Source: Mobula hypostoma (Eukaryota). Taken from it: DNA of 64,000 bases. Shown in pieces: positions 7,639-63,498 of this stretch; within the stretch, counting starts at the first letter, position 1, and every line of letters begins with the position of its first letter. A program made the position numbers and the translations under genes. The notes under the pieces are model-generated. The model was not told where the DNA came from. It searched no databases and worked only from the letters and a program-made list of their open reading frames with translations. The stretch lies in the NCBI RefSeq assembly GCF_963921235.1, contig NC_086097.1, positions 119,352,001-119,416,000 of the forward strand. Direction: 5' to 3'.

Positions 7639-10341
7639 AGAATTCCTTAGAAGAGTTTTGGGAAGAAGAACTTACAGCAGACTTGGAGGGAATTGTCTGC
7701 AAAATCACTCTTCCCCTGCACTGTAAGAACAATATATTCTGCAGTTTGGTATCTTAGTAATAACTTTCTATTTAATTACCATGTTTGAGCCAGAACTATG
7801 CAACATCATTTTACCTAGCTTAACAAGAAATCTTCACATGTAAGCTTCCCGGACTAGGCTTGAGATAAAATGCTGCAAAAAACCTGTAAATTGTGTTGCT
7901 AGACATGGTTCCAAATGCAGGGCTACAGGTTACTACAGCAACATAACACCAGGAATTTCCAGAAAAACTCAGATCAGGCAGGAGCTGTGTGGGGTGAGAA
8001 ATAGAGATAAAGGTTAGTGACATGTTATCAGGAATGGAACATTAACTCTGTTACTATTTTCAGAGCTTCTGCCTGACTTGCTAAGCATCTTCTGAATATT
8101 CTGGTTTATTTCAGGTGCTCAACATCTGCAATTCATTGTCAGGCATTCAACAGTACAATAAATTATGCTCAAGAAATTTGAAAGTGACCAAACTGAAATA
8201 GATATGTGGGCTATCTTTAGCGTTATAAAAGCAGAATGACAGCTCAATGAAATAAATTATCAGAGGGTTCCACGGTCACAAATTGAATATGGAATTTCGT
8301 ACATGGTACAAGATTTAGTGAATGTTGTTCAGAAGCATGCAGACAAGAAACCAGCACATGCAGATTAATAGACTCCAGGTGAACCAGTCTCTTACAGATG
8401 TCAGATTTGCATAGCATTACAAAAGGAATATGAAATTAGCCCTGATTGTAAAGGCTTGTTTATTCAGTGGCAAACGCTGAAAATAATGAAGATAAGAGAG
8501 GAATTTCAAAGACACAATCAAGCAAGGAAGATGAAATATACTCCGTCACATAAGGATGAGAATAAGAATTCAAAGAGCAGCATTGTGAGTCTTTGTCATG
8601 ATGCTATTTACAGACTGAGATTAGTCAGTGTCAAAGTGCAAATAAACAAGGTGATCTACCCATTCTGCCCAAGCTGATAGTCAAGCACTCATGTTTATGA
8701 TTCCCATTTGCTCAGACTTGAATCACAGCCTTCTATGATGCAGCTGCTTTATTACACGCTGAGGAAGCTGATGTTGTGTGAGGTGAGAAAAAGCTGAGAG
8801 CTAAAACAGTACTGAAGTAAATCTGATGAGCAAGATGTTCCATTAAGAGATAATATTAAACAGCAAGTGGAAGCTTGGGAAGCTGTCAGGAAAAAAAAGA
8901 GTTGTGAGATGTAAGACCATAAAACATGGGAGCAGAATTAGACTATTTGGCACCTCGAGTCTGGTCCACCATTTGATCATGGCTGATTTATTGTCCCTCT
9001 CAACCTGATTCCACTGCCTCTCTCCAGATTCTTTGACATTCTTACTAATCAAGAACCTTTTAAACTCTGCTTTAATTATACTCAATGACATGGTCTCCAC
9101 AGTGTCTGTGGCAATGAATTAACCAACCTCTGGTGTAAGATTTCCTCTTCATTTGTTTCAAAGGGAGATCCTTCTATCCTAAAGTTGTACCCTGTGATCC
9201 TAGACTATCCCATTATTAGAAATATCTTCACCACATCCACTCGATCCAGACCTTTTAATATTTGATAGGTTTTAATAAGATCTCACCACATTCTTCTAAA
9301 CTCCAGTGAGTACAGGCCCAGAGCCATCAAAAGGTCCTCATACGTTAATCTGATCACTCCTAGGATCATTTTCATGAACCTCCCCTCCCTGGACTCTCTC
9401 TAATGCCAGAGCATCCTTTCTTAGATAAGGGGACTAGAACTGCTCATGATACTCCAAATGTGGTCTGACCAATACCTTATAAAGCCTTGGCATTACAACC
9501 CTGCTTTTATATTCTAGCCCTCTTGAAATGAATGCTAATACTGCATTTGCCTTCCTTACCACCAATTCAATCTGCATGTTAACCTTTAGAATATCCAGCA
9601 CTAAACCCCCCAAGTCCCTTAATCCTCCCATTCCTGAGCTTGCTCCCTCTTTAGAAGAAAGTCTACACCTTTATTCCTTCTACCAAAATGCGTGTCCATA
9701 TACACTTCCTTACACAGTAATCCATCGATCACTTCTTTGCTCTTTCTCCTAATCTGTCCAAGTCCTTCTTCAGACTAGTTGCTTCCCCAACACTACCTGC
9801 CCCTCTACCTTTCTTTGTATCATCTGCAAATTTGTACACAAAGCGATCAATTCTGTTATCCAAATCACTAACATATATCGTGAAAAGCAGTGTACCCAAC
9901 AGAACACACTAATCACCAGCAGCCAACCAAAAAAGGCCCCCTTTATTCTCACTCTTTTCCAGCCTCCAGCCAGCCAATCTTCCATCCATTATAAGATCTT
10001 TCCTATAATACCATGTGTTCCCACCTTAGTTAGCAGCCTATGTGCAGCATTTTGTCAAAGGCCTTCCAAAAATCTAAGTAATTAACATCCACTGATTCTA
10101 CTTCGTTTACTCTGCCTGTAGATTCTCAAAGAATTCCAACAGATTTGTCAGGCAAGATTTCATCTGATGGAAACAATGCTGGCTTTGGCCTTGTTTACTC
10201 TTTATATATGAAAAGACTTTTGGCATCATCCTTTGTATTATTGGCTGGCTGAATGTCATATTTCAATTTTAATATCCTTACAACACACATAAAAATGCTG
10301 GTGAATGCAGCAGGCCAGGCAGCATCTATAGGAAGAGGTAC

Positions 10342-10377
10342 AGTCGACGTTTCGGGCCAAGACTCTTCGTCAGGACT
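10342..10377 (-). ncRNA. Minimal type-I hammerhead ribozyme motif in Penelope pLTR
   Basis: Minus: AGTC-CTGACGA-AGAGTCTTGGCCC-GAAA-CGTC/GACT. Core intact, one stem II mismatch. Confidence 0.8.
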
Positions 10378-10655
10378 AACTGAAAGAAGAGATAGTAAGA
10401 GATTTGAAAGCTGGAGGGGAGGGGGAGGGAATGGAGCTAAGTGCTGGAAAGTTGATTGGCAAAAGGGATATGAGGCTGGAGAAGGGAGAGGATCATGGGA
10501 TGGAAGGCCTAGGGAGAAAGAAAGGGGGAGGGGAGCCCAGAAGATGGGCAAGGAGTTGTAGTGAGAGGGACAGAGGGAGAAAAAAGAAAGAGAAAATAAA
10601 TAAACAAACAAACAAACAAACAAACAAATAAATAAATAAATAAATAGATAGATAG

Positions 10656-11613
10656 TGTTACGTACCCCGTAACTGGGTTGCCAAACCAGCAGAAATGGAT
10701 CACTCAGTTGGAGTCTGGATTACTAGAACTAAGAAAGTTTTATTAAAGAAACAAGCAACACAGTAATTGAAAGGATAATAAATGCAACAGTTCAGCAATG
10801 ATAAACACACATGTGCACAGAATTAAGATAACAGCATCAATCAAGCTCTATCGTTGTCTAGGGGTAAATGACCAATTTCAAAGTGACACAAAGTTCAGTC
10901 CGATTTAATAGTTCAGTTCGCAGTAATCGTTGCCATGGCGATGGACAACGTGGGGGGAGGGAGAGAGAGAGAACGGGAAGGACTGATCATTCAGAACGGC
11001 TTCCACTCACAGACCGGCGATATTGCTCACAAGCAGCTTTCGGGCGGGTCCTTTGTGATGTCACCTGAGATCACCGACTGTGACCCCTCCTCCAGATGCG
11101 GTCGATCCTCTGCAGTGAACCCGGCACCCAGGCAAGGGCGGACACACACCGGGTTCCCGCTGATCGTACCCTTCCACCCTGTGTGTTTATGGTCTGGTAC
11201 TTCCCACCGACTCGTGAGAGGCGCAACGCTTCCAGGGTCTCGTTACCTCAGGTGTCGTGTGTGTGCTGCCTTAGCGAACCTGTCCCTTTTTATCCCCTGC
11301 TGGGGTATCGCCTGTCGATCGCTTCAAACAGTTCAGGGTTCAAAGGGGGAGCCGCTCCAGACAGCTCTCTCTCTCCCGTCCCTTCATTACACATCTCCAG
11401 ATCGCCTGTCCATCACTTCAAACAGTTCAGGGTTCAAAGGGGGAGCCGCTCCAGACAGCTCTCTCTCCCGTCCCTTCATTACACATCTCCAGATGCTGCT
11501 CCATTGTTCCTTATCTCTCCTTCCCCTGAGGGCAGGTGGCAGACCAACTGCTGATGCCACTGACGCTAACCCAGGCCAGCAAACATCTTAATTTTATGTG
11601 TATTCTCGTCACA
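10656..11613 (-). mobile_element. Gypsy-type solo LTR (958 bp) with 4-bp TSD
   Basis: TGTTACG...CGTCACA termini; ATAG at 10652-10655 and 11614-11617. Its 3' end (minus) matches the 3' end of the LTR at 62664-63498. Internal ~93-bp tandem duplication 11309-11494. Confidence 0.9.
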
Positions 11614-14600
11614 ATAGATAGATAAATAAGGGATGGGGTACGAAGGGGAGGTGGGGCATGAATGGATGTTAGAGAAGTCACTGTTCATGCCATCAAGCTG
11701 GAGGCAATCCAGACGGAATATAAGATGTTGTTCCTCCAACCTGAGTGTGGTTTCATCTTGACGGTAGAGGAGGCCGTGGATGGACATATCAGAGTGGGAA
11801 TGGGACGTGGAATTAAAATGTGTGGCCACTGGGAGATCCTGTTTTCTCTGGTGGACAGAGTGTAGTTGTTCAGCGAAATGGTCTCCCAGCCTGCGTCGGG
11901 TCTTGCCAATATATAGAAGGCTGCATCGGGAGCACCGGACGCAGTATGTCACCCCAGCCAACTCACAGGTGAAGTGTCGCCTCACCTGGAAGGACTGTTT
12001 GGGGCCCTGAATGGTGGTAAGGGAGGAAGTGTAAGGGCATGTGTGGCACTTGTTCCGCTTACAAGGATAAGTGCCAGGAGGGAGATCGGTGGGAAGGGAT
12101 GGGGGGGATGAATGGACAAGGGAGTCGCGTAGGGAGCGATCCCGGTGGAAAGCAGAAAGAGGGGGACAGGGAAAGATGTGCTTAGTGGTGGGGTCCCGTT
12201 AGAGGTGGTGAAAGTTACGAAGAATTATATGTTGGACCCGGAGGCTGGTGGGGTGGTAGGTGAGGACAAGGGGAACCCTATTTCTAGTGGGGTGGTGGGA
12301 GGATGAGGTGAAAGCAGATGTGTGTGAAATGGGAGCGATGCATTTGAGAGCAGAGTTGATGGTGGAGGAAGGGAAGCCCCTTTCTTTAAAAAAGAAGGAC
12401 ATCTCCTTCATCCTGAAATGAAAAGCCTCATCCTGAGAGCAGATGCGGAGGAAATGGAGGAATTGCAAGAAGGGGATGGCATTTTTGCAAGAAACAGGGT
12501 GGGAAGAGGAATAGTCTAGGTAGCTGTGAGAGTCCATAGGCTTATAGTAGACATCAGTAGATAAGCTGTCTCCAGAGACAGAAACAGAAAGATCAAGAAA
12601 GGGGAGGGAGGTGTCAGAAATAGACCAGGTAAACTTGAGGGCAGGGTGAAAGTTGGAGGCAAAGTTAATGAAGTCAACGAGCTCAGCACGTGTGCAGGAA
12701 GCAGCGCCAATGCAGTTGTCGATGTAGTTGGGGACAGATACCAGTGTAGGCTTGGAAATTGGATTGATCCACAAAGCCAACAAAAAGGCAGGCATAGCTG
12801 GGGCCCATACGGGTGCCCATGGCTACACCTTTAGTTTGGAGGAAGTGGGAGGAGCCAAAGGAGAAATTATTAAGACTAAGGACTAATTCCGCTAGATGGA
12901 GCAGGGTGGTGGTAGAGGGGAACTGTTTTGGTCTGGAATCCAAAAAAGAAGCAGAGAGCTTTGAGCCCTTCCTGATAGGGGATGGAGGTATATAGGGACT
13001 GGACATCCATGGTGAAAATAAAGCAGTGGGGGCCAGGAAACTTAAAATCATTGAAAAAATTCAGAGCGTGAGAAGTGTCACAAACATAGGTGGGAAGGGA
13101 TTGAACAAGCGGGTGATAAAACAGCGTCAAGGTATGCAGAAATGAGTTCGGTGGGGCAGGAGCAAGCTGAAACAATGGATTTACCTGGACAGGCAGGTTT
13201 GTGGATCTTGGGTAGGAGGTAGAAATAGGAAGTGCGGAGTGTGGGGACTATAAGGTTGGTAGCAGTGGATGGGAGATCCCCTGAGCTGATAAAGTTTGTG
13301 ATGTTGTGGGAGACAATAGCCTTGTGCTCCTTAGTGGGGTCATGATTGAGGGGTAAATAAGAGGAGGTATCCTTAAGACTTTTCTTAGTTGCTTTCTTTC
13401 CTTTTGAAAAGTTCCCCAATCCTTGAACTTCCCAATGTTTGCTACTTTATTTGCTCTCTCTTTTGCTGACTTTGACTTTCCTTGTTAGCCACGATTGCTG
13501 CATCTTTCCTTTAGAATGCTTCTTATTTGCAATTAACTAATCTTGCGCTTTTGAAATTATTCCCAGAAACTCCAGTCATTGCTTCTCTGCTGTCATCCCT
13601 GATATTGTCCCATTCCAATCAACTTTTAGCAAGCTCCTCTCTCATGCCTCTTGGTTTGACTTTGCTCCACTGTAATAATGATACACCTGATTTTAAGTGT
13701 TTCCTTCTCAAACTCTCAGAGTGAATTATTTTATATTATGACCACTGCCTCCTAATGGTTCCTTCAACTTAAACTCCCTAATCAAATCTATTTCATTACA
13801 CAGCATCCAATCCATTAGTGTACTCAACCACTAGCTGCTTGAAAAAAAAAACACCCTCTTGGCATTCTACAAACTCCTTTCCTTGGGATCCAGCACCATC
13901 CTGATTTTCCCAATCTAAAGTAGCTGGATATTGAAATCTCCCATAACCATCATAACATTGCCCTTTTGACACACTATTTTTTAAAATCTCCCTTTGTAGT
14001 TTGTACCCCATGCCTTGGCTGCTGTTTGGAGGTCCATATATAAATCCCACTGGAGTTTCTTAACTCTACCCTCAATCTTCTGATCCTATGTTTCTTCATT
14101 CTTAGGATTTGATTTCAGTTGTTAACAATGTAGCCATCACTCCCCACCTGCCTGCCCTTTCAATACAATGTGTCTCCTTGGATGTTAAACCCCCAGCTGT
14201 GATCTTCATTCAACTACAACTCTGTGATGCCCACACGTCATACCTGTGCATTTCTAACTGTGCTACAAGTTCATCTACGTTGTTCTGCATCCTGCATGCA
14301 TTTAACTATAACACCTTCAGTCCTGTATTCATCTCCCTTCTTTTACAAATCTGTCTCCATGTTGCATAGATTTCTTATCCCTTTCTAAAATTTCTGCTTT
14401 AATATTAATGTTGAAGATTAGTAATCTATCCAGCACTCTCCTTCCCTTTTACTTTATACATATTTTTCCAAGCTAATGAACCCACCCTGGTACTATTTAG
14501 ATTAAAACCCTATCCACAGCCTTATTTATGTGATTCAGCAGGACTCTAGTTTCAGCATGATTCAGAGGCCTAAATTCTGGAAATGTTACTCAAAGGCAAT

Positions 14601-15559: not shown

Positions 15560-15993
15560 CTAACTGATTATATCACCGTCCGTTATGGAGGGGTCACTGC
15601 ATAGGATTGGAAAAAGCCGCAGAAGATTGTAACCTGAGCCAGCTCCAACATGGGTACTAGCCTCCTCAGCATCATGCCTCAAAAAGGCAGCATCCATCAT
15701 TAAGGACCCCCATTACCCAGTACGTGCCCTCTTCTTATTGCTGCCGTCAAGGAAGAAGTACAGGAGAGTGCAAACACAGACTCAATGTTTCAGGAACAGC
15801 TTCTTCCCCTCCACCATCAGATTTCGGAATGGACAATGAACCCATAAATACTACCTCACCGTTTTTTCTCTCTTTTTGCACTACCTATTTAATTTATTTT
15901 TTAACATAGTTACTACTTATTTAAATTTAGTAGTTTTTATACATTGCATTGCAATGTACTGCTGCTGCAAAGCAACAAATTTCACAACATACG
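15560..15993 (+). mobile_element. Rex1/Babar LINE 3' fragment
   Basis: Similar to 34970-35300 (CCATCATTAAGGACCCC...AGGAACAGCTTCTTCCCCTC). Confidence 0.7.
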
Positions 15994-16200
15994 CATAGAA
16001 ACATTGAAAATAGGTGCAGGAGTAGGCTATTCGGCCCTTCAAGCCTGCACCATCATTCAGTACGATCATGGCTGATCATCCAACTCAGAAACCTGTAGCT
16101 GTCTTGTATATACCCTGTATATGCCAGTAATATTAAACCTGATTCTGTATACTCCAAGTGCAGTCTGACCTATGCCTAAAAACTCCTCAGCATTATAAAC

Positions 16201-16844
16201 AACACACATCAAAGTTGTTGGTGAACGCAGCAGGCCAGGCAGCATCTCTAGGAAGAGGTACAGTCGACATTTCGGGCTGAGACCCTTCGTCAAGACTAAC
16301 CAAAGGACGAGCTAGTAAGAGATTTGAAAGTGGGAGGGGGAGGGGGAGATCCAAAATGATAGGAGAAGACAGGAGGGGGAGGGATGGAGCCAAGAACTGG
16401 ACAGGTAATTGGCAAAGGGGGATACGAGAGGATCATGGGACAGGAGGCCCAGGGAGAAGGAAAAGGGGGGGCTGAACCCAGAAGATGGGCAAGGGGTATA
16501 GTCAGAGGGACAGAGGGAGAAAAAGGTGTGCCCATCCTCTGAGTTTTTTCTTCCCCCCTCCCCCTTTTCCTTCTCCCTGGGCCTCCTGTCCCATGATCCT
16601 GTCATATCCCCTTGCCAACCACCTGTCCAGCTCTTGGCTCTATCCCTCCCCCTCCTTGGATCTCCCCCTCTCCCTCCCACTTTCAAATCTCTGAGTAGGT
16701 TTTCTTTCAGTTAGTCCTGACGAAGGGTCTCGGCCCGAAACGTCGACTGTACCTCTTTCTATAGATGCTGCCTGGCCTGCTGCGTTCACCAGCAACTTTG
16801 ATATGTGTTGCTTGAATTTCCAGCATCTGCAGAATTCCTCGTGT
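16201..16844. mobile_element. Penelope-derived fold-back element: inverted pLTR pair with 14-bp TSD
   Basis: Arms 16201-~16525 (minus) and ~16545-16844 (plus, with extra tail). TCAGCATTATAAAC at 16187-16200 and 16845-16858. A hammerhead motif in each arm. Confidence 0.9.
16713..16748 (+). ncRNA. Minimal type-I hammerhead ribozyme motif (intact)
   Basis: AGTC-CTGACGA-A-GGGT(CTCG)GCCC-GAAA-CGTC/GACT. Stem I AGTC/GACT; loopless palindromic stem III (ACGT); predicted cleavage after C16744. Confidence 0.85.
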
Positions 16845-17011
16845 TCAGCATTATAAACTTGTTTCCACCAAGCTTTTACATCTCAAATCAAAGGTGACCT
16901 TACAGAGGCAAATTTGATCTCACATTTAGCTATACGTACTTCATATCATCCATATTTCAGCATCTTGCACCTCGATTAAAATGAGCAATAAAATGGGTAC
17001 TGTAGTAAATG

Positions 17012-17238
17012 CTGGCAACACATTAAAAAATGCTTGAGGAACTCAACAGGCCAGGAAGCATCTATGGAAAAGAGTACAGTTGACATTTCGGCCCGAGACT
17101 CAAGTGTCCTGATGAAGGGTCTCGGCCCAAAGCATCCACTGTTTACTCTTTCCCATAGACGCTGCCTGGCCTGCTGAGTTCCTCCAGCATCGGGTGTGTG
17201 CTGCTTGGATTTCCAGCACCTGCAGATTTTCTCTTGTA
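17012..17238. mobile_element. Short Penelope-derived fold-back element
   Basis: Inverted arms meet at ~17101-17106 in the hammerhead region. TAGTAAATG at 17003-17011 and 17239-17247. Confidence 0.82.
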
Positions 17239-18054
17239 TAGTAAATGTTCCACGAGGTAGTACCCTCCATGTCTGTCCCAATCATTATAACCTATTATTG
17301 CGATAATGAAAAAGAGTTTGTTCTGGGTATAGGAAAGTGTGATTGCAGAATGAAAACCAGGAATAGAAAATTATTATCCCCATTCAAATCCAGGTCTGCT
17401 GGGGCCTGGAGGCTGCTAACAGCCTCTCCTGGGGGCTGAAGGCTGCAGACGACCTCTGCTGAGGGCTGGAGGCTGTAGACGTCTTCTCCTGAGGTTAAAG
17501 GACTGTGTTTGTGTGTGTGGAACAGGGCTTGTGTTGCTGTTGTTGCCTGGTATTTTAGTTTTGTTGTTCTTGTGTGTTGTTCTGCCGAGCAAGGTGGCCA
17601 TACTACATTGGTGCCTGTAGCACAGCTTTGTGTGCATCATGCACAAACATTCAGTCTCTTCCAAAAAGGAATAGACAATACTTACTCTGATTACACAGTC
17701 CAATTAGAATAATTAATAATACTTCATTTAAAATGGCACTTTAACACCAAAAGTAGTGGTAAAATTATTTTATATTTTCTGCTTTAAAGATAGTTATTAT
17801 ACTTCTGAGAAGACAAGAACTGAATGTGTGTGAATGAAAGCATTATATAATAAAAGTTTCTCACTTTAGGTTGGAATGGAAGCGAGTTTCTGCATTCCTT
17901 TATCTCAGCTATAAAACTGGACCCAGAAAAACTTTCTGTTCCACCAGTAGTAATGTGAAAGGCTACAAATTTCAATGTCACTACCATTCTTTAACTAAAT
18001 GAGTATTCAAAGCTAGAGCTGACCTTGCAAATGAAATAGGAGGATTGCCAAATA

Positions 18055-24188: not shown

Positions 24189-27146
24189 CATAGAACCATA
24201 GAACCATAGAAACTACAGCACAGAAAAAGGCCCTTTGGCCCTTCTTGGCTGTGCCGAAACATTTTCTGCCTAGTCCCACTGACCTGCACACGGACCATAT
24301 CCCACCATACACCTCCCATCCATGTATCTGTTCAATTTATTCTTAAATGTTAAAAAAGAACCCGCATTTACCACCTCGTCTGGCAGCTCATTCCATACTC
24401 CCACCACTCTCTGTGTGAAGAAGCCCCCCCACAATGTTCCCTTTAAACTTTTCCCCCCTCACCCTTAACCCATGTCCTCTGGTTTTTTTCTCCCCTTGCC
24501 TCAGTGGAAAAAGCCTGCTTGCATTCACTCTATCTATACCCATCATAATTTTATATACCTCTATCAAGTCTCCCCTCATTCTTCTACGCTCCAGGGAATA
24601 AAGTCCTAACCTATTCAACCTTTCTCTGTAACTGAGTTTCTCAAGTCCCGGCAACATTCTTGTAAACTTTCTCTGCACTCTTTCAACCTTATTTATATCC
24701 TTCCTGTAATTTGGTGACCAAAACTGAACACAATGCTCCAGATTCGGCCTCACCAATGCCTTATACAACCTCATCATAACATTCCAGCTCTTATACTCAA
24801 TACTTCAATTAATAAAGGCCAATGTACCAAAAGCTCTCTTTACGACCCTATCTACCTGTGACGACACTTTTAGGGAATTTTGTATCTGTATTCCCAGATC
24901 CCTCTGTTCCACTGCACTCCTCAGTGCCTTACCATTAACCCTGTATGTTCTACTTTGGTTTGTCCTTCCAACGTGCAATACCTCACACTTGTCAGTATTA
25001 AACTCCATCTGCCATTTTTCAGCCCATTTTTCCAGCTGGTCCAAGACCCTCTGCAGGCTCTGAAAACCTTCCTCACTGTCTACTACACCTCCAATCTTTG
25101 TATCATCAGCAAACTTTCTGATCCAATTTACCACATTATCATCCAGATCATTGATATAGATGACAAATAACAATGGACCCAGCACTGATCTCTGTGGCAC
25201 ACCACTAGTCACAGGCCTCCACTCAGAGAAGTAATTCTCTACCACCACTCTCTGGCTTCTTCCATCAAGCCAATGTCTAATCCAATTTACCACCTCTCCA
25301 TGTATACCTAGCGACTGAATTTTCCTAACTAACCTCCCATGCGGGACCTTGTCAAAGGCCTTACTGAAGTCCATGTAGACAATATCCACTGCCTTCCCTT
25401 CATCCACTTTCCTGGTAACCTCCTCGAAAAACTCCGACAGATTGGTCAAACATGACCTACCACGTACAAAGCCATGTTGACTCTCCCTAATAAGCCCCTG
25501 TCTATCCAAATGCTTGTAGATTCTGTCTCTTAGTACTCCCTCCAATAACTTACCTACTACCGATGTTAAACTCACCGGCCTATAATTTCCCGGATTACTT
25601 TTCGATCCTTTTTTAAACAATGGAACAACATGAACCACTCTCCAATCTTCCGGCACTTCACCCGTAGACAGCGACATTTTAAATATTTCTGCCAGGGCCC
25701 CCGCAACTTCAATACTAGTCTCCTTCAAGGTCCGAGGGAACACTCTGTCAGGTCCTGGGGATTTATCCACTTTAATTTTCCTCAAGACAGCAAGCACCTC
25801 CTCCTTTTCAATCTGTACAGTTTCCATGGTCTCACTACTTGATTCCCTCAATTCCATAGATTTCATGCCAGCTTCCTTAGTAAATACAGACGCAAAAAAC
25901 CTATTCACGATCTCCCCCATTTCCTTTGGTTCCGCACAAAGTCAACCACTCTGATCTTCAAGAGGACCAATTTTATCCCTTACAATCCTTTTGCTCTTAA
26001 TATACTTGTAAAAGCTCTTTGGATTATCCTTCACTTTGACTGCCAAGGCAACCTCATGTCTTCTTTTAGCCCTCCTGATTTCTTTCTTTAGTATTTTCTT
26101 GCACTTCTTATACTCCTCAAGCACCTGATTTACCCCCTGTTTCCTATACATTTCATACAACTCCCTCTTCTTCTTTATCAGAGTTGCAATATCCCTTGAG
26201 AACCAAGGTTCCTTATTCCTATTCAATTTGCCTTTAATCCTGACAGGAACATACAAACTCTGCACTCTCAAAATTTCCCCTTTGAAGGCTTCCCACCTAC
26301 CAATCACATCTTTGCCAGAGAACAACCTGTCCCAATCCACGCTTTTTAGATCCTTTCTCATTTCTTCAAATTTGGCCTTCTTCCAGTTCAGAACCTCAAC
26401 GCTAGGACCAGATCTATCCTTGTCCATGATCAAATTGAAACTAATGGTGTTATGATCACTGGAACCAAAGTGCTCCCCTACACAGATTTCCGTCACTTGT
26501 CCTAACTCGTTTCCTAACAGGAGATCCAATATTGCATCCCCTCTAGTTGGTCCCTCTATATATTGATTTAGAAAACTTTCCTGAACACATTTTACAAACT
26601 CTAAATCATCTAGACCCCTAACAGTATGGGAGTCCCAATCAATGTATTTGAAATTAAAATTCCCTACCACCACAACTTTATGTTTCCTGCAGTTGCCTGC
26701 TATCTCTCTGCAGATTTGCTCTTCTAAGTCTCATTGACTATTGGGTGGTCTGTAATACAATCCCACCAATGTGGCCATACCTTTCCTGTTTCTCAGCTCC
26801 ACCCATAAGGACTCAGTAGACAAGCCCTCTAATCTGTCCTGCCTGAGCACTGCTGTAATATTTTCCCTAACAAGCAATGCTACTCCCCCACCTTTCATTC
26901 CTCTGCCTCGATCACATTTGAAACATCGGAACCCTGGAATATTAAGCTGCCAGTCCTGCCCCTCCTGTAGCCAAGTTTCACTAATTTCTATAACGTCATA
27001 ATTCCACGTGTCAATCCACGCCCTCAACTCATCCGCCTTCCCCACAATACTCCTAGCATTGAAATATATACACCTCAGAAGATTTTTACCACCACTCACA
27101 ACCTTTCCATCGGCGGATTTGCTTAAACTTTTAACATCATTTATTT
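24189..27146 (-). mobile_element. Young CR1 LINE covering all of ORF2, inserted into an older CR1 (remnants 24115-24188 and 27147-27322)
   Basis: (CCATAGAA)n tail at 24189. Flanking remnants join colinearly (FQES...DDWKIANVTPLFKKG). Confidence 0.95.
24270..27099 (-). pseudogene. CR1 ORF2 (APE endonuclease + RT), disrupted by 3 in-frame TGA and one late frameshift
   Basis: Four listed ORFs share one frame: [42 protein letters not shown]. Frameshift in the G-run near 24430. Confidence 0.93.
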
Positions 27147-27747
27147 TCTAGTGATTCTTGAAAGATCATTACCGGTGCCTCCACAATCTCTTTTGCTGCT
27201 TCTTTCAGAACCCTGGGGTGTAAACCGTCTAGTCCGGGTGATTTACCTACCTGACTTTTCAGCTTTCCAAGCACTTCCTCCTTAGTTATAGCAGTAACAA
27301 TCACTTCTACTCCCTGGCACTCAAAAGGGAAATATTTGAGGGGGAGCTCTTTCACTCAGTGGGGGGAGGGGGGTCCATGTGTGCAATGAGCTGCCGGTGG
27401 AAGTGGGTTTTTAAGAGAGATTTGGAGAGGTACCCGGGTGGGGGGGGTGGGGCTTAAGCGCTGTGGTCCAGCTGCAGGTCAGTGGGACTAAGAAGAGTAA
27501 TAGTTTGGTATGAACTATATGGGTCGACGTTCTTGCTTTCTTGCTGTAGTGCTCTATGACTCTATTATTCTATGAACCCAAGCTTCTGTTCCTTGCTTGA
27601 AGTAAGTTAGGCAGCAATATCCCATAACACGTGGACTCAATTACCTTATGTTCATGGCATTATTAGGCCAGCAAAACAAGCCTTCTTGTTCGGTTTCACT
27701 TCGGATAACCCTCACATTTGAGCAGCTTTGGATTCCTTATCTAAGAA

Positions 27748-32826: not shown

Positions 32827-35425
32827 CACTCAGTTGTCACTTTATTAAGTACACCTGTACAGCTATTCATTAATGAAGATGTCTAATTAGCCAATCATGG
32901 CAGCAACTCAATCATAAAGACCTGCAGATATGGTCAAGATGTTCAGTTGCTGTTCACACTAAACATCAGAATGGGGAAGAGATGTGATCTAAGTGCCTGA
33001 CCATGGAATGATTGTTGGTGCTAGATGGGGTGATTTGAGTATCTCAGAAACTGCTGATCCCCTGAGATTTTCACGCATAACAGTCTCAAGAATTTACAGA
33101 AGATGGTGTAAAACACACAAAAAATATCCAGTGAGCATAGTCCTGTTGGTGAAAATCTCATGTTAATGAGGGAGATCAGAGGAGAATGGCCAGACTGGTT
33201 CAAGGAAACAAAAAGCCACAGTATCTCAAATAACCATACATTACAACAGTGGTGTGCAAAAGAACATCTCTGAATGCACAACACAATGGATCATCTGGCT
33301 GTACTTCTGCTCCCTGAGTATAGGCAGAGACTGAAGACTGCAGCATGAGTAGTGAGGACCAAGGAGGTATGGAGAAGTGAAGCACAAGAGCAGCTACAGG
33401 ACTGCTTTGAATCAGTGGACTGGATTGTACTCAGGGATTCACCTTCAAACCTGGATAAGTATGCTGCAGTTGTTACCGACTTCATTAAAACCAGTGTGGA
33501 TGAGTATGTGTCTACAAAGACTCACTGTACGTTCCCAAGCCAAAAGCCGCAGATGAACCAAGAGGTACATTGTCTGCTGAAGGCTAGATCTGTGGCATTC
33601 AAGTCTAGCAACCCAGGCCTGTACCAGAAAACCAAGTATGATGTGTGAAAGGCTATTTCAAGGGCGAAGAGGCAATTTTGAATGAGGTTGGAGGTGACAT
33701 CGGATGCACAGTAACTCTGGCAGGGTTTGCAAGACATTACTTCCTACAAAGCGAAACTCAATAGCATGAGTGGCAGCGATGCTTCACTACCAGATGAATT
33801 CAACGCCTTCTATGCACACTTTGAAAGGTAAAACACAACTACAGCTGTGAAGATCCCTGCTGCACCTGAAGACCCTGTGATCATCATTTCAGAGGCCGAT
33901 GTTTGGCTGTCTTTAAAGAGAGTGGACCCTTGCAGGGTGGAAGGTCCCAATGGAGTACCTGGTAAGGCTCTGAAAACCTGTGCCAACCAACTAGCGGGAG
34001 TATGCAAGGATATTTTCAACCTCTCACTGCTATGGGCAGAAGTTCCCACTTGCATCAAAAAGGCAACAATTATACCAGTGCCTAAGAAGAATAATGTGGG
34101 CTGCCTTAATGACTGTCACCCGGTAGCACTCACATCGACAGTGATGAAATGCTTTGAGAGGTTGGTCATGACTAGACTGAACTCCTGCCTCAGCAAGGAT
34201 CCGGACCCATTGCAATTTGCCTATCGCCACAATAGGCCAATGGCAGACACAATCTCAATGGCTCTCCACACAGCTTTAGATCACCTGGACAACACAAACA
34301 CCTATGTCAGAATGCTGTTCATCATCTATAGCTCAGCATTTAATACCATCATTCCCAAAATCCTGATTGAGAAGTTGCAGAACCCGGACCTCTGTACCTA
34401 CCTCAGCAATGAGATCCTCGACTTCCTAACCATAAGACCACAATCTGTGCAAATTGGTAATAACATATCCTCTTCGCTGACAATCAACACTGGGCCACCT
34501 CAAGGGTGTGTGCTTAGCCCACTGCTTTACTCTATATCCACCCACGACTGTGTGGCTAGCTTTAGCTCAAACATCCTCTATAAATTTGCTGACAATACAA
34601 TCACTGTTGGTAGAATCTCAGATGGTGACAACAGGGCATACAGGAGTGAGATTATGCAACTAGTGGAGTGGTGCTGTAGCAACAACCTGGCACTCAACGT
34701 CAGTAAGATAAAAGAACTGATTGTGGACTTCAGGAAGGGTAAGATGAAGGAACACATAACAATCCCCATTGAGTGATCAGAAGTGGAGAGAGTGAGCAGT
34801 TTCAAGTTCCTGAGAGTCAAGATCTCTAAGGATCTAACCTAGATAAATACATATCGATGTATTTATAAAGAAAACAAGACAGCGGCTATACTTCATTAGA
34901 AATTTAAAGAGATTTGGCATGTCAACAAATACACTCAAAAACATTTATAGATGTTCCGTGGAGAGCATTCTGACAGGCTGCATCACTGTCTGGTATGGGT
35001 GGGGGGGTGGGGGGGGGGCTACTGCACAGGACCAAAGGAAACTGCAGAGGTTTGTAAGTCTAGTCAGTTCCGTCTTGGGTACTAGCCTACAGGGAACGGT
35101 GTCTCAGAAAGGCAGTGTCCATTATTAAGGACCTCCAACACCCAGGGCATGCCCTTTTCTCACTGTTATCATCAGGTAGGAGATACAGAAGCCTGAAGAC
35201 ACATACTCTGTGTTTCAGGAACAGCTTCGTCCCCTCTGCCACCCAATTCCTAAATGGACATTGAATCCTTGGACACTACCTCACTTTTTTTAACATGCCG
35301 GTGAGAATAAACTTGATTCTGATTCTAACTGATTTTGAAGTGGATGGGGTACACAGGACCATGAGCGTACACTCAGTGGCACATTATTAGACCCAGGAGG
35401 TACCTAATAAAGTGATTTTTACCTG
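32827..35425 (+). mobile_element. Tc1-derived MITE split by a Rex1 insertion (32827-33285 and ~35330-35425)
   Basis: TA-CACTCAGTTGTCACTTTATTAAGTAC start. After the LINE tail the MITE resumes (TTGAAGTGGATGGG) and ends in the TIR hairpin. Confidence 0.85.
33286..35326 (+). mobile_element. Rex1/Babar-clade LINE, 5'-truncated; 309-aa RT fragment at 33847-34776
   Basis: PVALTSTVMKCFERLV, DPLQFAYR, YSSAFNTI, GPPQGCVLSPLLYS, KFADN, KELIVDFRK; (GATTCT)n tail. Confidence 0.9.
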
Positions 35426-35742: not shown

Positions 35743-35950
35743 AGATTCTGCATATGTCGGAAGTCCAGGGTAACACATAGAAAATGCTGGAGGAATTCAG
35801 CAGGCCAGGCAGCATCCATTGAAATGAAAAAACAGACAATATTTCAGAACAAGACCCTCCAACAGTTTTGTCCTGAAACATTGACTGTTGATTCCCCTCC
35901 ACTGATGCTGCCTGACCTGCTGAGTTCCTGTGGTATTCTCTGGGTGTTGA
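35743..35950. mobile_element. Degenerate Penelope-derived fold-back element
   Basis: Inverted arms meet at ~35862 in hammerhead remnants. CATGTTCAAG at 35733-35742 and 35951-35960. Confidence 0.75.
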
Positions 35951-44790: not shown

Positions 44791-46694
44791 TTTCCTAGTA
44801 CAATAACATGGATTTTTGACCTCAGAATCTGTTAAGTTAGCTTATTAATACTGTCAGTTTCAACCCATTATATCTGGACCTTTATTGAATTTCCTTCTTT
44901 GACACAGGTTCAACATTTTGGAACTTCCCATCTAACAGCACGGTTATCACCTTCATTATGATTTACTGCTTCAGATTTTTTAGTTTGTTTTAATTATAGA
45001 TTAGATGGCAAATATCATAATCACACATATGCTTTAATGATGGTATAAATTGCATTTGATAATTCCTTTCAAATTCATGCAGTAAAGTGGACAATTATCA
45101 TAAAGTTTTATTATCAAGGCAATCTGAAATTTGTTACATTTGGTTGGAACCAGAAATCTGAAGTGCATCATAATCATCAGGGAACTTTGTTTATATGTGT
45201 TACTTAATTTCAAATGAATTCACCTCCAGCATAAGGTACTATCATCTCATTCCCATCCCCCAGAGTGCCAAATTTCTTGGCTTTTCCCTTCTCTGTCTTC
45301 CAGTTTATCAGCTGTAAATTTATTGAAAATGTCATTTCGTACCAAAGTAAGTTCAGTCCTATATCATCCATATTTGGATCTTTATCACATATTCTTTTAT
45401 TTTCTGTATTAAAAAAGGAAATCATGCATGATCATGGGATTACCATCTCACATTATTAATGTCCTGTTGCTGATTTAAAGTAGAAACGTTATTGTTCTGT
45501 TTCTATTAGAAGTAGAAATTATTCCATAGATACAACCGTAGATAATATTATGCATGATTGTGCAAAGCCTGAAGATTTTCTCACTAAATTTCCTTCTCTT
45601 AGGACTACTTTAACCAGGGTGTTGATCCATTAAAGTTAACTTCATTAATATCTATTTAACTAAGAGGATAATAATTTGACCTAAGTATTTTAAATAATTT
45701 CTGGCCTATATATATATATATATATATTTCAATTTAACTACAGCCTGACAAAATGTACTTAAAATCCAAACAACTTGGCATCCTGGTTGTTCCCAGTTAC
45801 TTACATTAATTTATTTCTGTACAACACAATAATTTGCAATATTTGCTTTGTTTAATGGCATGGATTTTTCTCAGCTTGCCTGCTCTATGTTTGAGATACT
45901 AAGAAGAATAAACTACATGGTAGAAGGCCGCTACCTCAAATCTTGCATCAAGAACAGAGTGATTTTCACTTTTCTCCCTCCATCCCATCTCCCATTCGCC
46001 CCTCCTTTTCTAAACTACCTCATTACATCTAAGATGTACATTTGCTCATTAAATAGAATGTAGCACATAGGAGGAGTGCAGAACAGAAACAGGCACTTTG
46101 TCCCTCAATGTTGTGCTAAGCTAATTAAACTGGTAATTAAAACATATGGAACTATTCTTCTCTGTGAACATAAGCTCACATGCCTCCATTCTCTATATAT
46201 TTGGATACCTATCTAAGAACCTCTTAAACCCCTCTATTCTATTTGCTTACACTACCACCCCCATCAATGCATTCCAGGCACCCACTAATATGTGCAAGAA
46301 ACTTGCACCACACATCTCTTTTGAAGTTTACACCTCTCATATGAAATACATGCCTTTTAGTATTAGACATTTCAACCCTGAGGAAAAATAAAATCCAGCT
46401 AGCCAGAGTTATATAAAGCTACAACATAACTGCTTCACTCTTGAACTCAATGCCTGATCTAATAAAGGCTCGCATGCTCTTCATCCTGCTGATGAAGGAT
46501 CTCCTTTGCTTTTTGAGAAGGTCACAGTTTAACACTGCCTCTTAAACAGATTTCTGTCCTTATGATTTCTGTCCTAAATGACCAACCATTTTCTCAAGGC
46601 ACTGGAATTCTTTCTGTTCCTCAAAATATTCATTAACCATCCTCATATTCTCATATGAATAGAATTGAGATACATCCTCAAATATCAGTTCCAT

Positions 46695-48620
46695 TCTATT
46701 CCCCTTGGTTCAGTCCCTTCTCATCTACATCCACAACATTCCTCATGCCCTCGATCTCCTCAGTGCCTTTCCATTCCCTGCCCTGACCGTCTTATCTTCA
46801 CTATGGATGTTCAGTGCCTATACACTTCTGTCCTCCATCAGGAAGGCCTCAAAGCCCTCCACTTCTTCCTTGACAAAATGCCAATCAGTCTCCCTCCATC
46901 AGAAACTTCCTCCATCTGGCAGAACTAGTCCTCACCATGAGCAGTTGTCCTTCGGCCCCTCTCACTTTCTCCGGACTCAGGGGGTAGCCACAGGCACTCA
47001 AATGGGCCCAGACTATTCTTACGTCTTTGGTGGTTATGTAGAACAGTCTACGTTTAAAGCCTCCCCCGCATATACTCCCCAACTCTTCCTCTGCTATGTT
47101 AACTGCGCTGGTGCTGCTTCATGCTGAACTCATCAATTTCATTAACTTTGCCTCTCACTTCCACACTGCCCTTAAATTCACTTGGGCCATCTCTGACACC
47201 TCCTTCCTCTTTCTTGATCTTTGTGACCTCTGGAGACAAACTGTCAACCAACATCTTTTCTAAAACTACTGATTCCCCTGTTTATTTTGACTATACCTCT
47301 TCCCACCCTATCTCCTATAAAAATATATTCCCTTTTCTCATTTTCTTTGACTCCACTACATCCCAGGATGTGACTTTCCATTCCATGACATCAAAGATTA
47401 CCTCCTTTTTTAAAGAACAAGGGTTCCCTCCCTCTACTGTTGATGCTGTCCTCACCTGCATCTCCTCCATTTCCCATTCATCCATACTCACCCCATTCTC
47501 CCACCATTGTAATAGTGATAGAGTCCTTCTTGTCCTTACCTACCATCCCATCAGCCTCTGCATCCAACTCATTCTCCTCTGTAACTACCACCATCTCCAA
47601 AGGGATCCTACGATAAACCTATCTGTACCTCTTGCCCCACCCTCTGTTTTCTGCAGGGATTGCTCCCTCCATAATTCCCTTGCTCATTTGGCCCTCCCCT
47701 CTAATCTCCTTCCAGGCACTCATTCCTGCAAGTGGCTTAAGTGGCAGACTTGCCCATACACCTCCTCTCTCACCTCCATTCAGGACCCCAAACAGTCCTT
47801 CCAGGTGAGGCAACACTTCACTTGTGAGTCTGTTGGGGTCATCTATTGCATCCGGTGCTCGGTGTAGCCTCCTCTACATCGGTGAAACCCGACGCAGATT
47901 GGGGGACCGCTTCGTCAAGCACCTCTACTCCGTCCGCCACAACAAACAGGATCTCCCGGTAGCCACCCACTTCAACTCTGCTTCCCATTCCCATTCAGAT
48001 ATGTCCATACATGGCCTCCTCTACTGCCATGATGAGGCTAAACTTAGGTTGGAGGAGCAACACCTCATATACCGTCTAGGTAGTCTCCAGCCCCTTGGTA
48101 TGAACATAGAATTCTCCAACTTCCAGTAATTCCCTTCCCCTCCCTTCCTCTATCCGTATTTCACTCTACCCCTCCCCCAGCTCCCTCATGGTTTCACCTC
48201 CTTCTTCTACTACGCATTGTTTTCAGGGCTATGACGTCAATGCTTCCCCTCCCCCATCCCTTTGTCTTTCAAATTACTGGTCTTTCAACTGAAGCTATAA
48301 GCATTCTTCAAATCCTTCCCCATCTTTCATTCTTCAGTCCTGACGAAGGGTTCCAACCCGAAACGTCGACTCATCATTTCTAACTGATTCTGCCCGACCT
48401 GCTGAGTTCATCCAGTGTACTGAAAGTGTTGCTTTTGGCTTCACCTATCACCTTGTCACTAACCTCCTTCCTCTCTCCCCAACATTGTATTCTGGCATTG
48501 ATCCCTTTCCTTCTCAGTCCTCCTCGTGAAGGCTCTTGTCCTGAAAAGTTGACTGTTTACTCTTTTCCATATAAGCTGCTTAACCTGCTGAATTCCTCCA
48601 GTGTTTTGAGCATGTTCCAT
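46695..48620 (+). mobile_element. Penelope-like element(s): degenerate RT plus better-preserved GIY-YIG and two successive pLTR ends
   Basis: IFTMDVQCLYTS, GVATGTQMGP, LVLTYHP, YCIRC..CSLLYIGETRRRLGDRF...LEEQHLIYRLGSLQP. Confidence 0.9.
48336..48371 (+). ncRNA. Minimal type-I hammerhead ribozyme motif (intact, variant stem II)
   Basis: AGTC-CTGACGA-A-GGGT(TCCA)ACCC-GAAA-CGTC/GACT. Confidence 0.85.
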
Positions 48621-58798: not shown

Positions 58799-59025
58799 GT
58801 GATACATGCATAATACTGGAGGAACTCAGCAATTCAGGCAGCATCTATGGAGTGGAATATACGGTCGATGTTTCAGGCTGAGACTCTTCATCTGGACTGG
58901 AGGAGTCTCGGCCTGAAACATCAACAGCTTACTCCTTTCCATGGATACTGCTTGAACTGCTGAGTTCCTCTAGCATTATGTACGTGTCACACTGGATATC
59001 CAGTATCTGTAGAATCTCTCGTGTT
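58799..59025. mobile_element. Penelope-derived fold-back element
   Basis: Inverted arms meet at ~58900 beside hammerhead remnants. Imperfect 15-bp TSD TATAATGCCAACGTA (58784-58798) / TACAAAGCCAACATA (59026-59040). Confidence 0.8.
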
Positions 59026-59299
59026 TACAAAGCCAACATAACAGCTTTCTTTTGGCATGGGGAGTTATGAAATCCTCTTAAAGTAATGGCTGTCATTGGT
59101 GCTGGCATTATGGATAACAAGCACCATGATTTATAATCCATTCTCAGTCACAATTACTTTGTTGCTGCAATTCACATGGGCACTTCAGTTGAGCAAATAT
59201 CCTCTGGGAAAAAGTTAACTTCTGGGCTGACTCTGAGCTTCAGTGCATTGAGCCTGTTGCAGAAAGAATAGTGAGGGCTAATTACTAGTACGTTTGTAA

Positions 59300-62663: not shown

Positions 62664-63498
62664 TGTGATGGGGTCCAGAAATACCCCTATGATCTGTGCT
62701 TTTGGAAAAAGAGAGAGGGAGTTGTGGAACACAGACACCTTGTTAAAAGAGAGAGAAAGAAAGAGAGAGAAAGAGGCGAAGACTGCTTTGAGATGGTGTT
62801 ACAGTTATTCGACAGCATGTTTACACTTTTGCAAGGACACTAGCAGCTTCCAAGTTCTTACAGAAAGAGAAGAGAGGAGCTGCTTGATGGACAGATGGTA
62901 TTCAGCATAGTGAGATAAATAGAAGGTCAGCTGTTAGACCTACAGACATATGGTTTTGGACACTAAATGAGCTTTGTTGTGCCCACGAAAAGGTGAGTTT
63001 TGGGAGGATCGATCAGGCAGATCGATCAATGGTTCTTGCAGTGTGAAAAGGGTGTGACTAGTGGGGAATTATTCATGTGCCAACCCTCGCCTGGGTTGAT
63101 AATTCTACCACAGAAGAACGGTCCCCTTTGTTGTGGTCACAGTCGGTGACTTCGAAATGATTTCAGAGGACAACGGGAAGATCAACAGCGTCAGCTCACC
63201 TGAAGACTCAAATCTCGCCCCCTCACTCTCTCTCCACCACTACTCAACTCAATACCATGAACTGAACTGAACTTTACTCATCATCGCAAGACTATTTATC
63301 CCTAGACTTGAAGAAGCTTGGTTTTCATATATTTTCACACTTACTTATATATAATCATTGCTAACCTGCTTTATATATATTATTTTATATTACTGTATTG
63401 CGTAGTTACTGATAAATATCATTAGTTAATAGCAATACTGGATTCCAAAGTGTTTTCCATTTCTGCTGGTTCTATAACCCGTCACGGGGTACGTGACA
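62664..63498 (+). repeat. 5' LTR of a Gypsy retrotransposon (~835 bp)
   Basis: TGTGATG...CGTGACA; followed by a PBS and gag. The left boundary is inferred. Confidence 0.8.

What the first reader, a model, noticed from the sequence alone, without database searches (positions are those of the whole stretch)
16187..16858. 644-bp fold-back retroelement carrying two inverted hammerhead ribozymes and a perfect 14-bp TSD
Seen: two ~300-bp inverted Penelope pLTR arms with no coding sequence. Hammerhead motifs lie at 16262-16297 (minus, two core substitutions) and 16713-16748 (plus, intact). The ~35-nt tail is on one arm only, and TCAGCATTATAAAC flanks both sides. Known: Penelope-like elements carry minimal hammerheads and often insert with an inverted pLTR. 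Inference: this is a single, recent, non-coding insertion. If transcribed through, it would form a long dsRNA hairpin in which the ribozyme is sequestered by its own antisense arm.
Basis: partly seen in the sequence, partly recalled or inferred. Interest (0 to 1): 0.75.

Follow-up and report, generated by a model that had tools for sequence, protein, structure and literature searches.

The report
Dead two-armed Penelope insertion in ray
This 644-base hairpin-shaped insert is an old, protein-less stub of a Penelope-like jumping gene, left in the two-armed head-to-head layout already described for this class, so it is real but ordinary.

Summary
A 644-bp insert (16201-16844) lies between two perfect 14-bp repeats. 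It has two head-to-head arms, each with a minimal hammerhead motif, and a 35-nt tail on one arm. The arms are the 3' end of an RT/GIY-YIG Penelope-like element (Neptune-type linker) whose remnant lies 5 kb away; the closest named relatives are from rays. One insertion event is supported: no target DNA at the centre and no second TSD. 'Recent' is not. The arms differ at 27 of 272 aligned sites, with changes split evenly between them, and a second organism 2% diverged in the flanks has the same tail-TSD junction. The layout is published, and it recurs three more times in this window with other breakpoints; this scan has also noted it before in this genome and others. No evidence of transcription was found. 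Such minimal hammerheads are reported inactive as monomers, so sequestration by the antisense arm explains nothing extra. Most likely mechanism: both nicked target strands primed reverse transcription, one at each end of the tail, and the two cDNAs were joined. Side observation: 5' ends cluster in the 5' half of the hammerhead.

The parts
16187..16200 (+). left target-site duplication, 14 bp
   Evidence: identical to 16845-16858, not extendable, only 2 occurrences in the window
16201..16526 (-). left arm: 5'-truncated 3' end of a Penelope-like element, without the tail; reaches 37 nt further 5' in the element than the right arm
   Evidence: 249 of 289 identical to the ORF-linked copy at 10281-10654; arm alignment; an organism B family contig stops matching at 16526
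16262..16297 (-). minimal type I hammerhead motif, decayed: C3 to U (16293), loop II G to A (16278), 15.2 C to U (16269)
   Evidence: helix III self-duplex +1.2 kcal/mol against -3.1 for the right motif
16527..16528 (.). head-to-head junction: 2-nt filler (up to 4 nt unassigned against copy A), no target DNA, no inverted overlap
16529..16844 (+). right arm: 5'-truncated 3' end of the same element, with tail; 17-nt and 2-nt deletions and a 9-nt gain in a pyrimidine run relative to the left arm
   Evidence: 224 of 255 identical to copy 10281-10654; family contigs carry the 17-nt segment (loose end at 16656)
16713..16748 (+). minimal type I hammerhead motif with intact core; predicted cleavage after 16744
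   Evidence: sequence; exact match of the motif pattern; stems I and II in the monomer fold; descriptor from PMC4209133
16810..16844 (+). 35-nt tail, on this arm only
   Evidence: 374, 380 and 325 contigs of runs X1, X2 and X5 leave the reference behind 16845, marking the family's 3' end
16845..16858 (+). right target-site duplication, 14 bp
   Evidence: tail-TSD-flank junction in contigs of organism A (0 differences in 229) and organism B (2 in 247)
10281..13106 (-). context: decayed Penelope-like element of a related subfamily; RT and GIY-YIG remnant 11566-13106, a 958-bp TG...CA insert at 10656-11613, 3' end with hammerhead to 10281
17012..17237 (.). context: second fold-back (F2), tail on right arm, 11-bp TSD with 1 mismatch
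35743..35950 (.). context: third fold-back (F3), tail on left arm, perfect 10-bp TSD
58799..59028 (.). context: fourth fold-back (F4), tail on right arm, 12-bp TSD with 2 mismatches

Best explanation
It is one old, dead-on-arrival insertion of an endonuclease-bearing Penelope-like retroelement (PLE, Neptune type) in a ray genome, so truncated that only the non-coding 3' end was copied, twice, head to head. Mechanism: (1) The element's GIY-YIG endonuclease cut both strands of an AT-rich target with a 14-nt stagger (inferred from the TSD). (2) Each free 3'-OH primed reverse transcription of element RNA: the bottom strand at the tail end (16844), the top strand at the internal start 35 nt upstream (16201, equivalent to 16809). 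This is inferred from the anatomy; cutting and extension of both strands and two start sites flanking the tail were shown in vitro for an Anolis PLE (PMC11167929). (3) Both cDNAs read through an uncleaved hammerhead, stopped after about 326 template nt and were end-joined with a 2-nt filler (lengths and junction shown; joining inferred). (4) Gap filling made the TSD. (5) Both arms then decayed neutrally (shown). The hammerheads are passengers of the element's end and have no role at this locus (inferred). I give the identity, single event and old age about 0.9, and the two-primer route within that about 0.6.
For: The arms are 86% and 88% identical to the 3' end of an ORF remnant. Relatives of that ORF carry RVT_1 (21 of 49 hits), and 2 of 49 carry both RVT_1 and GIY-YIG. 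One TSD bounds both arms, and the centre has only 2-4 unassigned nt. All 4 fold-backs in the window have a TSD of 10-14 bp and a tail on one arm only, with different arm lengths. Neither arm contains all of the other: the left has 37 extra nt at the 5' side and the right has the 35-nt tail, so copying one cDNA cannot give both. Arm differences are split 7:7 and 12:13. Organism B has the same right junction and differs at 22 of 1090 positions in two contigs, against 27 of 272 between the arms (p = 3e-8). The layout is published (PMC8557442 Fig. 2 legend; PMC3846280; PMC4209133).
Against: The empty site was not seen: no such joint among the 15 listed of 1854 joints. The organism B contig has only 26 letters on the element side, under the tool's 31-letter bridging rule, and its left junction and centre were not among the listed pieces. 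Reads had to be at least 90% alike to the window, which biases the 'family majority'. Some arm-specific letters could be minor subfamily variants, for example the three linked transversions at 16693-16699, so the arms may have differed at birth. The remnant's own GIY-YIG hit is below Pfam's cut-off (E = 0.007), and its RT fragment has no Pfam or meaningful PDB hit. In vitro the two strands showed no difference in start site (PMC11167929), so the one-tail rule (4 of 4; p = 0.06 if random, my arithmetic) is not explained by those data alone.
Confidence: 0.85

Rival explanations
1. Same element and single event, but the inverted arm arose by self-priming (snap-back) of an antisense template or of the first cDNA, not by a second target primer.
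For: Proposed in PMC3846280 from palindromes at inverted junctions. In F3 and F4 the arms abut or overlap by a few nt. An earlier scan note on this genome (e1-7809460) says turning points follow short inverted matches.
Against: This junction and that of F2 show 2-4 and 6 unassigned nt with no inverted overlap, though decay may have blurred one. Snap-back of a cDNA cannot supply both the tail and the 37 extra nt. The arm reaching further 5' is the tail-less one in 2 of 4 fold-backs and the tailed one in 2 of 4.
Confidence: 0.2
2. The two arms were copied from two different source RNAs by a protein dimer, so they differed at birth and the insertion is younger than the arm divergence suggests.
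For: A dimer is predicted for the Anolis PLE protein. The TSD is perfect. Pooled TSD divergence in the four fold-backs (3 of 47) is lower than pooled arm divergence (83 of 530).
Against: That difference is not significant (p = 0.13; 0.25 without CpG-type sites), and the TSDs were chosen for best match. At all 14 assignable sites the opposite arm holds the family majority letter. Organism B shares the junction, so it is not recent in any case.
Confidence: 0.12
3. The whole fold-back is a non-autonomous unit that is itself copied from a hairpin RNA (a MITE-like or retrozyme-like family).
For: pLTR sequences alone can support mobilisation in trans (PMC3846280). The family is extremely abundant: 198,056 contigs of run X1 were laid on 2.1 kb.
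Against: The four fold-backs have four different junctions and arm lengths. Joints from other copies link the arms at other points, such as 16258/16766, 16271/16715 and 16297/17109 (short sides, weak). No editing signature: of 14 polarised changes, 0 are A to G and 1 is T to C on the plus strand (read). No tandem array.
Confidence: 0.04
4. Two independent insertions, or a later inverted duplication, happened to give the palindrome.
For: The family is dense (16 arms or copies in 64 kb), and the arms differ by 10%.
Against: Neither arm has its own flanking repeat (read). No target DNA lies between the arms. One TSD bounds both. The same pattern appears in 4 of 4 fold-backs.
Confidence: 0.02
5. 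The locus is a functional hairpin RNA (siRNA source or editing substrate) with a ribozyme switched off by its antisense arm.
For: The predicted hairpin is very stable and removes the hammerhead fold. The right motif is intact.
Against: The arms carry mismatches and three indels, with no sign of maintained pairing. No host exon was recognised: 1 of 139 non-repeat frames hit Pfam, and that was an RT. Single minimal HHRs showed no cleavage in vitro.
Confidence: 0.02

Closest known systems
Inverted or complex insertions of EN+ Penelope-like elements (Craig et al. 2021, PMC8557442 Fig. 2; Pen2a_Av in Arkhipova et al. 2013, PMC3846280)
   Same: 5'-truncated copy with an adjacent inverted 5'-truncated copy, head to head; 30-40-bp tail at one end only; whole unit flanked by one TSD; HHR in the terminal repeat.
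   Different: Truncated so far that no ORF remains. TSD is 14 bp against 8-10 bp in the rotifer examples. No palindromic overlap at the junction.
Dual minimal hammerheads on opposite strands 100-700 bp apart (Cervera and de la Pena 2014, PMC4209133)
   Same: Two minimal type I HHRs on opposite strands about 415 bp apart, attributed to truncated PLEs; extra nucleotide before stem II; palindromic positions 15.2-16.2.
   Different: That observation was made in Schistosoma. Stem II here is 4 bp rather than 7-8.
Poseidon PLE of Anolis carolinensis (PAc; Frangieh et al. 2024, PMC11167929)
   Same: Two reverse-transcription start sites flanking the tail; both target strands cut and extended; AT-rich target; uncleaved RNA as template.
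   Different: The ray element has the CX4CxxC linker of the Neptune type; no biochemistry exists here.
Non-LTR retrozymes (Li et al. 2026, 10.64898/2026.07.22.740005)
   Same: Non-coding, type I HHR, derived from PLE pLTRs, similar unit size.
   Different: Retrozymes are direct tandem repeats with at least two same-strand HHRs; this is an inverted pair with one HHR per strand.
L1 twin priming (recalled; search listing only, PMC2837659)
   Same: Both target ends prime cDNA, giving an inverted, truncated insert within one TSD.
   Different: In L1 the two parts cover different stretches of the RNA; here both cover the same stretch.

Membership tests
EN+ Penelope-like element insertion | Sequence belongs to an element encoding RT plus C-terminal GIY-YIG endonuclease | tested here: met
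   Arms 86-88% identical to the 3' end of the remnant at 10281-13106. Its relatives carry RVT_1 (21 of 49) and both RVT_1 and GIY-YIG (2 of 49). The remnant's own GIY-YIG hit is weak, E = 0.007.
EN+ Penelope-like element insertion | 5' truncation with an adjacent inverted 5'-truncated copy, head to head | tested here: met
EN+ Penelope-like element insertion | 30-40-bp tail at one end | tested here: met
   35 nt, 16810-16844; 4 of 4 fold-backs one-tailed
EN+ Penelope-like element insertion | TSD flanking the whole unit | tested here: met
   14 bp, perfect; empty site not observed
EN+ Penelope-like element insertion | Minimal type I hammerhead motif in the terminal repeat | tested here: met
   Motif read against the descriptor of PMC4209133; not detected by Rfam models
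EN+ Penelope-like element insertion | Arms lie within a formal pLTR (repeat shared by both ends of a full-length copy) | not testable with these tools
   No full-length copy in the window and no genome held; the arms are shown only to be the element's 3' end
Neptune clade | CX2-5CxxC linker upstream of GIY-YIG | tested here: met
   CX4CxxC read by eye in the translation of 11566-12198; criterion from PMC8557442, which says Nematis shares it
Neptune clade | RT phylogeny groups with Neptune | not tested
   No named reference RTs were at hand; no tree was built
Non-LTR retrozyme | Direct tandem repeats with at least two consecutive same-strand HHRs | tested here: not met
   Inverted pair, one HHR per strand
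Non-autonomous fold-back family (MITE-like) | Many copies of uniform length sharing one internal junction | tested here: inconclusive
   Four different junctions in the window; genome-wide count of this junction not possible
Active hammerhead ribozyme | Self-cleavage | not testable with these tools
   No assay; published minimal HHRs need a dimer or the PLE protein

The most novel reading that the evidence does not exclude
These ORF-less two-armed inserts are fossils of a coupled two-primer reaction: one PLE protein dimer primes both target ends on one RNA, one at each tail boundary, and the hammerhead fold is the main barrier where both RTs stop. This would explain the one-tail rule (4 of 4), the closeness of the two 5' ends in every fold-back (within about 40 nt in element coordinates, though arm lengths range from about 85 to 326 nt), the equal 326-nt run of both arms here, and the clustering of 5' ends in the 5' half of the hammerhead (6 of 10 events in 17 nt). 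The abundant copies in ray genomes would then be a ready dataset for deciding how PLE inverted ends form.
Probability: 0.3. Interest if true: 0.45.

Novelty: new member of a known kind. Interest (0 to 1): 0.13.

Why it matters
The single locus matters little: it is one dead copy among very many. How PLEs make their inverted ends and tails is still called unresolved (PMC8557442). Clean, ORF-less, TSD-bounded examples like this one discriminate between models: this copy cannot come from snap-back of a single cDNA. A genome-wide tally in rays could test two-primer against self-priming models, and test whether the hammerhead fold limits reverse transcription.

Tried and rejected
Whole-genome search: no genome is held for this window, so copy number of the central junction and the empty site in an assembly could not be tested. 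Rfam: 38 matches up to E = 10, none a hammerhead family, all below gathering score; the miRNA-family matches reflect the hairpin only. Two motif scans of metagenome contigs and one of viral contigs found 0 matches. Empty-site joint: not among the 15 listed of 1854 joints; uninformative. Transcription: run X10 (RNA by guess only) has zero depth in most unique-flank bins, for example 16873-17014; contigs show presence, not absence, so this is not counted as evidence. Depth of family bins (up to 8.6 million against 14-21 in the lowest unique bins, run X1) is no copy number. PDB sequence searches of the two ORF fragments gave nothing meaningful. Pfam scan of 139 non-repeat reading frames (137 taken from the 150 longest of 196 candidates, plus 2) found one RT fragment and no host exon; short exons would be missed. 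TSD-versus-arm divergence as a test for two templates: not significant. In one search the stem II pair that I queried was mis-indexed by one base, so only the stem I and inter-arm probabilities are used. The idea that arms end at the ribozyme cut site was rejected: all 8 fold-back arms extend 5' of it. Absolute dating was not attempted, for lack of a rate.

Full report
Observation. The 14-mer TCAGCATTATAAAC lies at 16187-16200 and 16845-16858, is not extendable, and occurs nowhere else in the window. The 644 bp between are two head-to-head arms: left 16201-16526 on the minus strand, a 2-nt filler, and right 16529-16844 on the plus strand. They match at 245 of 272 aligned positions, with indels of 17, 2 and 9 nt, and fold at -498.3 kcal/mol, z = -38.8. 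The right arm carries 35 extra nt at its 3' end (16810-16844); the left arm carries 37 extra nt at its 5' end. The right hammerhead motif (16713-16748) has all elements of the minimal type I descriptor of PMC4209133. The left one has three changes: C3 to U in the core, one at position 15.2 that destroys the ACGU palindrome used for dimeric helix III (self-duplex +1.2 against -3.1 kcal/mol), and one in loop II. Rfam does not detect either motif.

What the arms are. Both arms are homologous to 10281-10654 on the minus strand (249 of 289 and 224 of 255 identical). That stretch is the 3' end of a decayed ORF at 11566-13106, separated from it by a 958-bp TG...CA insert in a microsatellite. The ORF remnant has a weak GIY-YIG hit (E = 0.007). 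Of 49 relatives of its RT-side fragment, 21 carry RVT_1 and 2 carry both RVT_1 and GIY-YIG. The best named relatives are from Mobula hypostoma (84-89%) and Hypanus sabinus, so the host is most likely a myliobatiform ray (inference). A CX4CxxC motif precedes the endonuclease (read by eye), which PMC8557442 gives for the Neptune and Nematis clades. A second remnant at 46669-48415 also runs from ORF to hammerhead. No tree was built.

One event. Only 2-4 nt at the centre cannot be assigned to either arm, neither arm has its own flanking repeat, and one TSD bounds both. Three more fold-backs in the window have the same build: 17012-17237 (11-bp TSD, 1 mismatch), 35743-35950 (10 bp, perfect) and 58799-59028 (12 bp, 2 mismatches). 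Each has a tail on one arm only and its own junction. Contigs of organism A are identical to the window in both listed flank pieces, so A is probably the source and is no independent support. Several hundred contigs per run leave the reference behind 16845, marking the family's 3' end.

Age. The arms differ by 9.9% (8.1% without CpG-type changes). At 14 of the 27 sites the read table names the family's majority letter; in all 14 the other arm holds it, and the changes fall 7 on each arm. Against the ORF-linked copy the split is 12:13, with 2 unassigned. This fits decay after insertion. A perfect TSD is expected in 23-31% of cases at this divergence, so it is no sign of youth. A contig of organism B covers 16819-17065 with 2 differences: 26 tail letters, the TSD and the flank. 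The left flank shares only 4 of 26 letters with the tail, so this is not an empty site. B differs from the window at 22 of 1090 positions in its two long contigs, so the insertion predates the A/B split and, if the arms began identical, is about four to five times as old. Limits: 26 letters is under the tool's 31-letter rule; B's left junction was not listed; the empty site was not seen; the read majority is biased toward sequences like the window.

Mechanism. Both 3' ends of the element face outward and are joined to the two TSD copies, as expected if each target strand primed a cDNA. PMC11167929 showed in vitro that an Anolis PLE protein cuts and extends both strands, starts at two sites that flank the tail, needs no homology to the target, uses uncleaved RNA, and is predicted to be a dimer. 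Here the top-strand cDNA would start at the internal site and the bottom-strand cDNA at the tail end. Each arm has sequence that the other lacks, so snap-back of one cDNA cannot make both. Self-priming on an antisense template (PMC3846280) could, but this junction shows no inverted overlap; F3 and F4 abut or overlap slightly, so that rival stays open. After correcting indels both arms cover about 326 template nt, which hints at coupling but is a single case. Of 14 polarised changes none is A to G and one is T to C on the plus strand (read), so there is no sign of passage through an edited hairpin RNA.

Function. If transcribed, the hairpin would remove the hammerhead fold (stem I pair probability 4e-39; position 16724 pairs with 16286 at 0.999). 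But one transcript holds one sense motif only, single minimal HHRs showed no cleavage, and the Anolis HHR needed protein. No host exon was recognised, and no evidence of transcription was obtained.

Side observation. Of 15 copies or arms aligned to the right arm, 2 are ORF-linked and were dropped; merging the arms of each fold-back leaves 10 events. In 6 of 10 the 5' ends lie at positions equivalent to 16713-16729, the 5' half of the hammerhead, 15-30 nt upstream of the cut site. The binomial chance is 7e-6 to 6e-3 for window probabilities of 0.06 to 0.2. The window was chosen after seeing the data, and alignment ends against a younger subfamily can mimic truncation, so this is a lead only. 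The present insert is an exception that read about 190-220 nt further.

Comparison with what is known. PMC8557442 (passages and section 15) draws the adjacent inverted 5'-truncated copy and the one-sided 30-40-bp tail as typical. PMC3846280 (passages and section 11) gives examples with 8-10-bp TSDs. PMC4209133 (parts 1-2 of 4) reports dual minimal HHRs 100-700 bp apart on opposite strands. PMC11167929 was read in parts 1-2 of 4; PMC8969392 in passages; the retrozyme preprint in part 1 of 5 and passages; a ray genome preprint in passages, with no mention of Penelope in its main text. Supplements were not read, and those of the preprints could list ray or shark families. Five searches listed no paper on this ray family or on truncation at the hammerhead; subscription journals, Repbase and Dfam were not searched. 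The scan's own notes record the same pattern in this genome and in other genomes; these are unchecked and are not counted as support.

Verdict. A real, well-preserved example of a known insertion pattern. Interest 0.13.

Noticed in passing
window 5839, 17099/17106, 27831, 35860-35866, 50647, 58898/58900: 5' ends of family copies cluster in the 5' half of the hammerhead (equivalent to 16713-16729) in 6 of 10 events, upstream of the cut site.
   Followed up: partly
window 17012-17237, 35743-35950, 58799-59028: Three more TSD-bounded fold-backs of older related subfamilies, each with a tail on one arm; arms differ by 19-25%.
   Followed up: yes
window 10656-11613: 958-bp TG...CA insert flanked by CTAT, probably a solo LTR, in the microsatellite of the PLE 3' region; it has an internal tandem duplication of about 95 bp (11307-11494) and a related piece at 63354-63498.
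   Followed up: partly
window 48336-48415 and about 48500-48610: A second decayed hammerhead-like copy follows the PLE remnant's 3' end in the same orientation about 170 nt downstream; a partial tandem or a separate insertion.
   Followed up: no
window 16693-16709: Eight of the 27 arm differences fall within 17 nt just upstream of the hammerhead, including three transversions to G on the right arm.
   Followed up: partly
window 15975-16125: A roughly 130-140-nt abundant SINE-like repeat is nested in the 3' end of another repeat just left of the insert; contigs skip it. It resembles a shark or ray tRNA-derived SINE (recalled, untested).
   Followed up: no
window 24197-27147 (minus), 33738-35291, 55989-57752: Long LINE remnants with RT frames (RVT_1 hits for two tested); about 40% of the window is repeated within the window.
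   Followed up: no
proteins P0003, P0004, P0007, P0026: Database names of host genes (kinase domain 1C, mucin-2, chitinase domain protein, nicotinamide riboside kinase) are attached to isoforms containing PLE ORF sequence: probably gene models that absorbed the element.
   Followed up: no
window 17395-17494: Three tandem copies of a 30-nt unit; similar units occur near 159-578 and 1710-2243.
   Followed up: no
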